Positions 1 through 965 of a DNA stretch of 965 nt are shown piece by piece. The first letter of the stretch is position 1, and each line of letters opens with the position of its first letter. The stretch is from Escherichia coli. GTDB taxonomy: Bacteria > Pseudomonadota > Gammaproteobacteria > Enterobacterales > Enterobacteriaceae. The notes under the pieces were generated by a model that saw only the letters and a program-made list of their open reading frames with translations, did not search any database and had not been told where the DNA came from. A program made the position numbers and the translations under genes. The stretch is from the NCBI RefSeq assembly GCF_003334335.1, contig NZ_QOWQ01000134.1, one strand, 5' to 3'.

Positions 1-965
1 GTGATTTCATTGCGGGTTTCTGTGATGGTGGTCTGCATTTCCGCCATCTCGTCCTTCAGCTGACTGTTGTCAATCTCTGCCCACAGCGCCTCTGCCAGAT
101 GCAGTTTTCCTATTTTTTCCCGAAACAGCCCCAGATACCCTTCTGCATCATTGCTGGCCCGTCCACTGGCTTCAACAAAAGCAGATTTACCCACCAGGTT
201 GACGCTGCGCACATAAAACCAGAAATCCTTTCCGGGCTTAATGTGCGGACCGGAGACACTCCACTGACTGCCGGTCCCCAGATAACGGGCAGAGGTTTCC
301 ACCTGTGCGGCGTCTGCAATTTTTGCCTCCGAAAACCAGAACTCAAACTGCACCGTCGGGTCATACACCGCAAGACGCGGGACTGCCGTTATCTGAAAAT
401 ACCCCGGCGTCAGTTCAACACCGGCAGGCGCTGCCGGTGCGTTAATCCGGAACGTGGTGGTGGCGGGTTCGCCCTGCTGGCCATAGCTGTTAATCGCCCT
501 GACCGTCAGGGTGTATTCCCCGGGAGGCAGGCCACTGAAACGGTGCTCCGTATCGGCAGTGATGGCGGTGGTCAGCAGGCGGCTGTTCTCACCGCTTCCA
601 CTGGTCAGGCGCAGACTGAAGCGCACGCCCTTCACCACCCGCGGCGTGTCCCATTTCGCCAGCGCCAGATACTGGCCGTCAGCTGCGCTCACCTCCACCG
701 TCAGGTGCTGCACTGCCGGTGGGATAACGCTGTTCAGGGTGCCTGACTGCGGCTCAAAGCGGGCTCCGTTATCCACAATGGCTTCTTTTTCCGGTACGTG
801 CTGCACTGCCGTGATGGCAAAGGTGCCGTCCGTGTTTTCCCGGATGGAGACACAGCGGAACAGGCGACGGCGCAGTGACGGCAGGGAGAGTCCCCACACC
901 CCGTATGTCTCCACACCATCAGGCAGGGTACTGACCTGTATCCGGTCCGGCGCGGGGTGTGCGGT
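1..965 (-). CDS. J: Host specificity protein J / tail tip attachment protein (lambdoid gpJ family), internal fragment, partial at both ends
   Basis: Minus-strand frame with codon boundaries at + positions 3..965 is open for all 321 codons (positions 1-2 are a partial codon). Translation N->C, reading 965->3: [321 protein letters not shown]. Long stretches match my recollection of the central part of phage lambda gpJ (e.g. [71 protein letters not shown]). The protein is not low-complexity, unlike the R/C-rich products of the track ORFs. No start or stop lies in the window, so the gene extends beyond both edges. Confidence 0.93.

What the first reader, a model, noticed from the sequence alone, without database searches (positions are those of the whole stretch)
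3..140. Helix-prone, heptad-like segment at the C-terminal-ward end; probable point of strongest divergence from lambda J
After the conserved DAEGYL block the protein reads [43 protein letters not shown]. It is rich in E/K/L/A/Q with hydrophobic spacing suggestive of an alpha-helix or coiled coil, in contrast to the beta-rich modules upstream. From memory, lambda gpJ has [39 protein letters not shown] at the equivalent place: recognisably related at first, then drifting. This may mark the start of the variable distal part of J, which in lambdoid phages is exchanged modularly and carries receptor specificity further downstream. This window does not include the receptor-binding C-terminus.
Basis: partly seen in the sequence, partly recalled or inferred. 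Interest (0 to 1): 0.35.

Follow-up and report, generated by a model that had tools for sequence, protein, structure and literature searches.

The report
Helical shaft of phage tail-tip protein J
The flagged stretch encodes the first 45 residues of the alpha-helical shaft that links the fibronectin-like domains of a lambda-type phage tail-tip protein J to its distal fibre; this is a known domain, here in a common allele about 28 residues longer than lambda's, so the finding is real but ordinary.

Summary
The window is an internal piece of a lambdoid J gene (central tail fibre) on the minus strand. It is 99.1% identical in DNA to Escherichia phage PhiR5_1.

The flagged peptide is present exactly as quoted, at window nt 3-131. 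It is the most helix-prone stretch of the window and has the fewest Pro/Gly.

Identity to lambda J falls from 66% to 22% there (p=4e-8). In the full-length PhiR5_1 homologue this region is the identity minimum of the whole protein.

By position and homology it is the N-terminal half of the alpha-helical shaft (AHS). In lambda cryo-EM structures the AHS is a three-helix bundle that clamps the FNIII-2 trimer and refolds on receptor binding.

- **Periodicity.** A heptad register is not statistically supported. Long alleles show a 29-residue, 8-turn repeat.
- **Alignment.** The last 23 residues do not drift from lambda. They lie in a 28-residue unit that lambda lacks.
- **Module boundary.** This is not the start of a uniformly variable distal part. 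The beta-prism fibre downstream is conserved again. The receptor-binding module has its own boundary about 150 residues further on and assorts independently of shaft type.

The domain is known; interest is low.

The parts
3..965 (-). Internal fragment of the tail-tip / central tail-fibre gene J (321 codons, no stop). Corresponds to residues 536-856 of the 1157-residue J of phage PhiR5_1.
   Evidence: The frame is open throughout. DNA is 99.1% identical to PhiR5_1 J and 319/321 residues are identical. The best solved-structure match is lambda gpJ 8iyk_J, E=3.8e-125. PHROG hit phrog_31, 'central tail fiber J'.
435..746 (-). First fibronectin/Ig-like domain (FNIII-1; Pfam Ig_J), J609-712.
   Evidence: Pfam Ig_J E=3.6e-40 on the near-identical PhiR5_1 protein. 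Coordinates were transferred to the window.
129..431 (-). Second fibronectin/Ig-like domain (FNIII-2; Pfam Ig_J_second), J714-814, ending in the conserved DAEGYL block.
   Evidence: Pfam Ig_J_second E=1.2e-37. The AlphaFold2 monomer model has pLDDT 73-90 here. Coordinates.
75..146 (-). Shaft helix 1 (J809-832, [24 protein letters not shown]). Counterpart of the start of lambda's upper AHS helix (lambda 809-840).
   Evidence: HMMER aligns J812-833 to lambda 814-835, with 8/22 identity. Predicted helical in both AlphaFold2 runs, but at low confidence. The lambda helix is described in PMC11101478.
3..71 (-). First 23 residues (J834-856, [23 protein letters not shown]) of a ~28-residue shaft unit that lambda J lacks. 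The window ends inside this unit.
   Evidence: HMMER leaves J834-862 unaligned to lambda. The anchor-to-anchor shaft length is 86 here and 58 in lambda. Stacking in 29-mers gives three units here and two in lambda. The a/d register has p=0.014. The 8-turn harmonic dominates the middle unit, p=0.03. Helical with pLDDT 54-72 in the linked-trimer model.

Best explanation
Window nt 3-137 (minus strand) encodes the N-terminal 45 residues of the alpha-helical shaft (AHS) of the central tail-fibre protein J. The shaft lies directly after the second fibronectin-like domain and before the beta-prism 'central straight fibre'.

What follows is inferred by homology with lambda gpJ and was not tested here:
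- Three copies of this helix form a bundle under the FNIII-2 trimer and help hold the tail tip closed.
- When the distal receptor-binding domain engages its outer-membrane receptor, a twist travels up the fibre.
- The shaft then flips and partly refolds, the FNIII strings separate and the tube opens.

Shown here from sequence: this allele belongs to a common E. coli prophage class whose shaft is 86-87 residues long, against 58-59 in lambda, a net difference of 28 residues. The 87 residues stack as three 29-mers in register with the significant 29-residue repeat of long alleles (only the middle 29-mer fits it on its own), and lambda's stack as two. The last 23 residues of the window lie in the extra stretch.

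If that unit is fully helical, the shaft would be about 4 nm longer than lambda's (inference).

The shaft is the least conserved and most length-variable part of J between alleles. It varies independently of the receptor-binding domain.
For: Identity and position:
- Searches place the window in J.
- Pfam on the 319/321-identical PhiR5_1 J gives Ig_J_second at 714-814 and Phage_Tail_Tip at 871-998. No model covers 815-870.

Homology to the solved lambda shaft:
- J714-833 aligns to lambda 716-835, and J863-1157 aligns to lambda 837-1131.
- Lambda's AHS spans 809-861 and its closed-to-open refolding is described in PMC11101478. Domain limits of 615-862 for FN+AHS come from PMC10999833.

Helicity:
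- The segment has the highest helix propensity and fewest Pro/Gly in the window.
- The AlphaFold2 monomer model has helices at J809-834 and J839-851.
- The GS-linked three-copy model has helices at J809-832 and J835-893 in all three copies, with pLDDT 54-72 over J834-893.

Repeat architecture:
- Long alleles show autocorrelation peaks at lags 29 and 58.
- Their hydrophobic period is 3.625-3.65 (29/8 = 3.625), p<=0.001.
- The 8-turn harmonic dominates the unit profile: p=0.006 for long-allele units and p=0.03 for this allele's middle unit.

Length classes:
- The protein panel gives classes of 58, 86, 130, 159, 257 and longer; closed E. coli genomes give 86, 159 and 195 and a lambda-length short-shaft J.

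Variability:
- The shaft N-half is the lowest or near-lowest identity domain in every inter-allele comparison, and it assorts independently of the RBD.
- DNA similarity stops at the FNIII-2/shaft junction in 17 of 40 spread hits.
- A mosaic breakpoint at J876-883 is supported by clusters of 523, 96, 25 and 10 member sequences.
Against: - No periodicity test is significant for the 45 residues that are actually in the window.
- The first unit, J812-840, does not show the 8-turn amphipathic pattern (p=0.74).
- AlphaFold2 confidence is low. In the monomer run pLDDT is 29-60 over the shaft. In the linked trimer it is below 40 for J804-833, and the construct is not a true multimer prediction.
- No structure exists for a three-unit shaft.
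- Trimer formation, the extra length and the refolding mechanism are all transferred from lambda.
- The window is not identical to PhiR5_1 (nine DNA mismatches in 965 nt), so its own downstream sequence is unknown.
Confidence: 0.85

Rival explanations
1. One reading: a canonical left-handed heptad coiled coil that opens the modularly exchanged, receptor-specificity-bearing distal cassette of J.
For: - Identity to lambda drops sharply here.
- DNA homology often ends at this junction in closed genomes.
- There is a local a/d register in J834-862, p=0.014.
- Mosaic breakpoints fall within the shaft.
Against: - No single heptad register fits the segment (p about 0.9-1.0).
- The family periodicity is 29/8 = 3.625, not 3.5.
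- The fibre downstream is 69-92% identical between alleles.
- The RBD boundary is at about J980-1000.
- RBD and shaft types assort independently.
- Functional receptor-swap chimeras were made by fusing at lambda residue 964, keeping lambda's own shaft.
Confidence: 0.08
2. The segment is a flexible or disordered hinge with no fixed structure. Its divergence reflects an absence of structural constraint.
For: - AlphaFold2 confidence is low over the shaft.
- Inter-allele identity is lowest here.
- Length is freely variable.
- No Pfam model covers the region.
Against: - The homologous lambda residues 809-861 are resolved as a helix bundle in cryo-EM.
- Pro/Gly content is the lowest in the window.
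- Long alleles have a highly significant helical amphipathic period.
- Both AlphaFold2 runs give helix rather than coil.
Confidence: 0.04
3. The segment is helical, but the extra 28 residues do not extend the shaft. They form a helix-turn-helix or a beta element packed against FNIII-2 or the fibre, as parts of lambda's shaft do in the open state.
For: - Both models predict a helix break at J833-834 ('ID/DN').
- In lambda, residues 841-861 convert to beta strands on receptor binding.
- The monomer model shows low-confidence strands after J859.
Against: - The linked-trimer model gives one continuous helix over J835-893.
- The extra unit is in register with the 29-residue repeat of longer alleles, whose amphipathic period is helical.
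Confidence: 0.1

Closest known systems
Alpha-helical shaft (AHS) of bacteriophage lambda gpJ, residues ~809-861 (PDB 8IYK, 8XCI, 8XCK; Ge & Wang 2024, PMC11101478)
   Same: - Same protein family and the same position between FNIII-2 and the beta-prism fibre.
- The first 22 residues (8/22 identical) and the last 36 residues (9/36 identical) of the shaft align to it.
- The flanking domains are 69-75% identical.
   Different: - 28 residues longer: 86 against 58 between anchors.
- Window residues 299-321 have no lambda counterpart.
- Only 20-23% identity over the shaft.
- The trimeric bundle and receptor-triggered refolding were not tested for this allele.
Long-shaft J alleles of E. coli prophages (for example strains RM10466, UID2404240036, DETEC-S589, AH20K059)
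   Same: - Same flanking domains, at 84-92% identity.
- The same C-terminal shaft unit.
- Their internal 29-residue units match this allele's middle unit (...SEITQTV....EDQS..I.Q...).
   Different: - Shafts of 159-195 residues, and 257 in one metagenome-derived protein, against 86 here.
- The N-terminal shaft part is only 40-46% identical.
Phage T5 tail tip (pb3/pb4 FNIII strings and central fibre)
   Same: Per PMC11101478, lambda and T5 share the opening mechanism. The FNIII strings separate, the central fibre bends and the tube opens. This allele presumably works the same way (inference).
   Different: In T5 these functions are spread over separate proteins. No sequence comparison with T5 was made here.
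Non-heptad trimeric helical stalks, such as trimeric autotransporter adhesin stalks with 15- or 19-residue periodicities (from general knowledge, not tested)
   Same: A repeat length that gives about 3.6 residues per turn rather than 3.5, with polar (T/Q/S/N) residues at core-like positions.
   Different: No sequence relationship. The comparison is an analogy only.

Membership tests
Lambda-type tip attachment / central tail-fibre protein J | Significant full-length sequence homology to lambda gpJ and the J domain order (FNIII-A, Phage-tail_3 hub, Ig_J, Ig_J_second, Phage_Tail_Tip, Ig_GpJ_C). | tested here: met
   The window protein matches 8iyk_J at E=3.8e-125. All six Pfam domains are found in order on the 319/321-identical PhiR5_1 J. 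The gene lies between tail genes I and lom in PhiR5_1.
gpJ alpha-helical shaft (AHS) | Lies immediately after FNIII-2 and before the beta-prism fibre (Phage_Tail_Tip). | tested here: met
   Ig_J_second ends at J814 and Phage_Tail_Tip starts at J871. The segment is J812-856.
gpJ alpha-helical shaft (AHS) | Sequence homology to lambda gpJ 809-861. | tested here: met
   J812-833 aligns to lambda 814-835 (8/22 identical) and J863-898 aligns to lambda 837-872 (9/36 identical). The alignment is anchored by strongly conserved flanks. J834-862 has no counterpart.
gpJ alpha-helical shaft (AHS) | Alpha-helical secondary structure. | tested here: inconclusive
   Helix is predicted in both AlphaFold2 runs, but pLDDT is only 29-72. 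Helix propensity is the highest in the window. Periodicity is not significant within the window segment.
gpJ alpha-helical shaft (AHS) | Parallel three-helix bundle in the J trimer that clamps FNIII-2. | not testable with these tools
   Only a monomer model and a GS-linked pseudo-trimer could be run, and the coordinates were not inspectable.
gpJ alpha-helical shaft (AHS) | Flips and partly converts to beta strands on receptor binding. | not testable with these tools
   Known for lambda only (PMC11101478).
Canonical heptad coiled coil | A 3.5-residue hydrophobic periodicity with a consistent a/d register. | tested here: not met
   The best register over the 45 residues is no better than shuffles (p 0.9-1.0). 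It is met only locally at J834-862 (p=0.014). The family period is 3.625-3.65, with a 29-residue repeat. MARCOIL and DeepCoil were not available.
Exchangeable receptor-specificity cassette of J | Co-inherited with the receptor-binding domain. | tested here: not met
   PhiR5_1 and VT1-Sakai share the RBD (99%) but not the shaft (53-54%). Stx2a_JNE090279 shares the shaft (95-97%) but not the RBD (59%). The DNA boundary lies at about J980-1000.

The most novel reading that the evidence does not exclude
The J shaft may be a modular spacer. It appears to be built from 29-residue units of eight helical turns each, which implies straight rather than supercoiled helices. Anchor-to-anchor shaft lengths are 58 residues in lambda, 86 here and 130, 159, 195 and 257 in other Enterobacterial alleles. 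That is two 29-residue units in lambda, three here and roughly 4.5 to 9 unit-lengths in the others. Copy number would change by unequal recombination, independently of the receptor-binding domain. It would set the stand-off distance between tail tip and receptor and tune how the receptor signal is relayed to the tube-opening switch. I found no description of such a repeat or of these length classes in the paper library searched.
Probability: 0.3. Interest if true: 0.4.

Novelty: already known. Interest (0 to 1): 0.18.

Why it matters
For annotation, this places the unmodelled gap between two Pfam domains of J (residues about 815-870) as the alpha-helical shaft already seen in lambda structures.

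For phage engineering, it shows three things:
- The shaft and the receptor-binding domain are separate modules.
- Natural J alleles tolerate shafts of 58 to about 260 residues.
- The safe junction for receptor swaps lies about 150 residues downstream of this segment.

The 29-residue unit is a small, testable structural detail. It does not change how J is thought to work.

Tried and rejected
- **Heptad register.** A single-register heptad test and a hydrophobic power spectrum on the 45-residue segment were both not significant. 'Heptad-like' is therefore not claimed.
- **AlphaFold2 monomer** of J714-1000. FNIII-2 was confident, but the shaft and fibre had low pLDDT, as expected for an obligate trimer.
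- **GS-linked three-copy construct** as a stand-in for a trimer. It was helical throughout, but mean pLDDT was 45.7 and the N-terminal helix was below 40. I used it only as weak support.
- **Mosaic proteins with breakpoints inside the window segment.** P0056 (J823-827) and P0064 (J853-861) gave strong max-chi-squared signals. Both are singletons on short draft contigs. No phage record matches them above 88% and 83%. E. coli genomes carry up to 12 J copies, so these may be assembly chimeras and are not relied on. P0057 (J836-839) is also a singleton on a short contig and was not checked against the phage records, so it is not relied on either.
- **The idea that all shaft length differences are multiples of 7 or 29.** The difference from lambda is 28 and one step is 29. 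Others are 44, 73 and 36 (= 29+7), so the idea was rejected as a general rule.
- **Other scans.** An Rfam scan of both strands found nothing. The 215-codon antisense ORF has no PHROG match.
- **Exact source.** No identical source for the window was found in closed E. coli genomes; the best hit is 97.9%.

Full report
**What is in the window**

The minus strand, frame window:3-965, is open for all 321 codons. The DNA is 99.1% identical to the J gene ('tail tip host specificity protein J') of Escherichia phage PhiR5_1. In that phage the gene sits between tail genes M-L-K-I and lom.

The protein is 319/321 identical to PhiR5_1 J residues 536-856. About 2,050 of 5,426 closed E. coli genomes carry similar sequence, with a median of two copies and up to 12. 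None is identical; the best is 97.9%.

Against solved structures the best match is lambda gpJ (8iyk_J, E=3.8e-125). Window residues 8-300 align to lambda 543-837.

Pfam on PhiR5_1 J gives:
- Ig_J at 609-712
- Ig_J_second at 714-814
- nothing at 815-870
- Phage_Tail_Tip at 871-998
- Ig_GpJ_C at 1027-1157

The window therefore covers the hub-to-FNIII linker, both fibronectin-like domains and the first 45 residues of the unmodelled gap.

**Check of the observation**

The compositional claim holds. E/K/L/A/Q make up 49% of the segment against 30% elsewhere, and Pro+Gly is 5% against 15%. The segment has the highest Chou-Fasman helix propensity and the fewest Pro/Gly of 13 windows along the protein.

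The drop in identity to lambda is real: 10/45 against 188/284 columns, Fisher p=3.8e-8.

The 'heptad-like' spacing is not demonstrable:
- One a/d register over the 45 residues does no better than shuffles (p about 0.9-1.0).
- Helical-band hydrophobic power is not significant (p=0.34).
- Only J834-862 has a locally consistent register (p=0.014).

**What it is**

The AHS is a three-helix bundle below the FNIII domains that anchors the three FNIII-2 units. On LamB binding three things happen:
- the upper helix (809-840) remodels;
- residues 841-861 become beta strands;
- the shaft flips, the FNIII strings separate and the tube opens (PMC11101478).

Domain limits of 615-862 for FN+AHS come from PMC10999833.

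The flagged segment, J812-856, starts at the conserved DAEGYL block that ends FNIII-2. Its first 22 residues align to lambda 814-835 with 8/22 identity. It is therefore the N-terminal half of the AHS.

AlphaFold2 gives helices at J809-834 and J839-851 in a monomer run. A GS-linked three-copy construct gives helices at J809-832 and J835-893 in all three copies. Confidence is modest: pLDDT is 54-72 over J834-893 and below 40 upstream. I treat helicity as supported mainly by homology. The trimeric bundle and the switching mechanism are inferred from lambda.

**The 'drift' is an indel**

HMMER splits the alignment of PhiR5_1 J to lambda into two blocks. J714-833 aligns to lambda 716-835, and J863-1157 aligns to lambda 837-1131. 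J834-862 is left unaligned.

([18 protein letters not shown]) aligns instead to TLEDQSATIQQIQRVQKD, which lies beyond the window end. So window residues 299-321 sit in a 28-residue stretch that lambda lacks.

I measured the distance between conserved anchors in FNIII-2 and the CSF in 163 homologues. The shaft falls into discrete length classes:
- 58 residues (lambda type)
- 86 residues (this type, the majority in a panel biased towards the query)
- 130, 159 and 257 residues
- 219-332 residues in distant relatives

Closed E. coli genomes confirm classes 86, 159 and 195. One further closed genome (strain 2017.06.04CC) carries a lambda-length J with a lambda-type short shaft.

**A 29-residue unit**

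Long alleles show sequence autocorrelation peaks at lags 29 and 58. Their hydrophobic period is 3.625-3.65 (29/8 = 3.625), p<=0.001.

Exact repeats inflate any harmonic, so I tested the averaged 29-residue unit profile by column permutation. The 8-turn harmonic dominates, p=0.006.

Stacked in 29-mers from the C-terminal anchor, this allele's 87 residues form three rows. The middle row ([29 protein letters not shown]) is in register with the long-allele unit and shows the 8-turn harmonic on its own (p=0.03). Lambda has two rows.

The first row, which lies entirely in the window, does not show this pattern (p=0.74). That is unsurprising if it also packs against FNIII-2, but this is inference.

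More distant J-like proteins have 32-residue repeats and a period of 3.55. Not all length differences are multiples of 29 or 7; examples are 44, 73 and 36 (= 29+7).

**Is it the start of the variable distal part?**

Only in a limited sense.

In the full-length comparison of PhiR5_1 J with lambda, identity is 0.10-0.23 over J819-898. It recovers to 0.70-0.80 over J919-1018 in the CSF, then falls to 0.28-0.50 in the RBD. The shaft is thus the point of strongest divergence, but it is an island.

Per-domain identities to PhiR5_1 in complete phage and genome records make the same point:

| Record | Window part of shaft | Comparison regions |
|---|---|---|
| lambda | 20% | FNIII-2 75%, CSF 69% |
| RM10466 | 40% | FNIII-2 89%, CSF 92% |
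| AH20K059 | 44% | FNIII-2 84%, CSF 90% |
| UID2404240036 | 46% | FNIII-2 84%, CSF 89% |
| VT1-Sakai | 53% | FNIII-2 73%, CSF 72% |
| Stx1_499 | 84% | flanking domains 93-97% |

Shaft and RBD assort independently. VT1-Sakai has a 99% identical RBD with a 53% identical shaft. Stx2a_JNE090279 has a 95-97% identical shaft with a 59% identical RBD.

At the DNA level, PhiR5_1 and VT1-Sakai differ by 10-32 nt per 60 up to about J978. They are nearly identical from about J990 to the end. That boundary matches the lambda-964 junction used to build functional OmpC-targeting gpJ chimeras (PMC11338833).

Even so, the FNIII-2/shaft junction is itself a recurrent homology boundary. In 17 of 40 evenly spread hits from closed genomes, megablast similarity stops at query nt 339-340, which is J813-814 or window nt about 129.

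**Mosaicism inside the shaft**

I painted homologues against two parental types. Max-chi-squared breakpoints fell at J823-827, 836-839, 853-861 and 876-883, all p<0.0005, plus one in the CSF.

The J876-883 junction is carried by clusters of 523, 96, 25 and 10 member sequences. I accept that one.

The recombinants at J823-827 (P0056) and J853-861 (P0064) are singletons on short draft contigs. They have no counterpart above 88% and 83% identity in the phage collection. Because J is multi-copy in many genomes, they may be assembly chimeras, and I do not rely on them. The J836-839 recombinant (P0057) is also a singleton on a short contig and was not checked against the phage collection, so I do not rely on it either.

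Complete records do show a local patch of differences between PhiR5_1 and Stx1_499 at J819-858: 10 and 7 nt per 60, against 2 in each adjacent 60-nt bin.

**Other checks**

There are no Rfam families on either strand. The 215-codon antisense ORF at 99-746 (+) has no PHROG match.

**Verdict**

The structural guess (helical) is right, and the segment is the known alpha-helical shaft of J. The guess that it is the point of strongest divergence from lambda is also right.

The heptad reading, the residue-by-residue equivalence with lambda beyond residue 298, and the idea that the exchangeable specificity module starts here are not supported.

The domain and the gene are already known. The 29-residue unit and the shaft length classes are a minor addition that I did not find described in the searchable literature.

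Noticed in passing
window 99-746 (+): A 215-codon ATG-started ORF lies antisense to J. It has no PHROG match and is most likely a by-product of the composition of the coding strand.
   Followed up: partly
L001 ~5480-5866 (PhiR5_1 J1027-1157, RBD): The receptor-binding domain of the nearest full-length relative matches the 'A8 gpJ' chain (PDB 9wca) much better than lambda's RBD does (overall E=1.6e-160 against 2e-139). In PMC11338833, A8 is a chimera that targets OmpC. PhiR5_1-type phages may therefore use OmpC rather than LamB. The window itself does not reach this region.
   Followed up: partly
L001 vs L005 (PhiR5_1 vs VT1-Sakai J, ~J980-1157): Two otherwise divergent J genes (10-32 nt differences per 60 nt) become almost identical (0-2 per 60) from about J990 to the stop codon. 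This marks a clean RBD-module exchange boundary.
   Followed up: yes
L005 1-2766 (VT1-Sakai): The J gene of the Stx1 prophage VT1-Sakai is annotated as two overlapping CDS, 'truncated protein by a mutation'. It is therefore probably a defective tail-tip gene.
   Followed up: no
L010 and L011 (E. coli RM10466 and AH20K059 J genes); proteins P0123, P0136: Some J alleles have shafts of 159, 195 and 257 residues built from 29-residue repeats. AH20K059 differs from the 159 class by one 29-residue unit plus one heptad. Distant J-like proteins (P0234, P0237) instead show a 32-residue repeat.
   Followed up: partly
proteins P0060 and P0127: Two partial J proteins carry an apparent tandem duplication spanning the shaft C-terminus and the start of the fibre (anchor distances 140 and 136). 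These could be real duplications or assembly artefacts on contigs of 756 and unknown length.
   Followed up: no
window residues 20-160 (window nt ~486-908, minus strand): The stretch spanning the hub-to-FNIII linker and most of FNIII-1 has weak but significant similarity (E=8e-7) to the tail-fibre protein of F2-pyocin (PDB 25vf_A, residues 558-698).
   Followed up: no
L003 1501-2468 vs window: The Stx2a-converting phages match the window at 94.3-94.4% over 968 nt rather than 965 nt. This is a 3-nt (one-codon) indel somewhere in the FNIII region.
   Followed up: no
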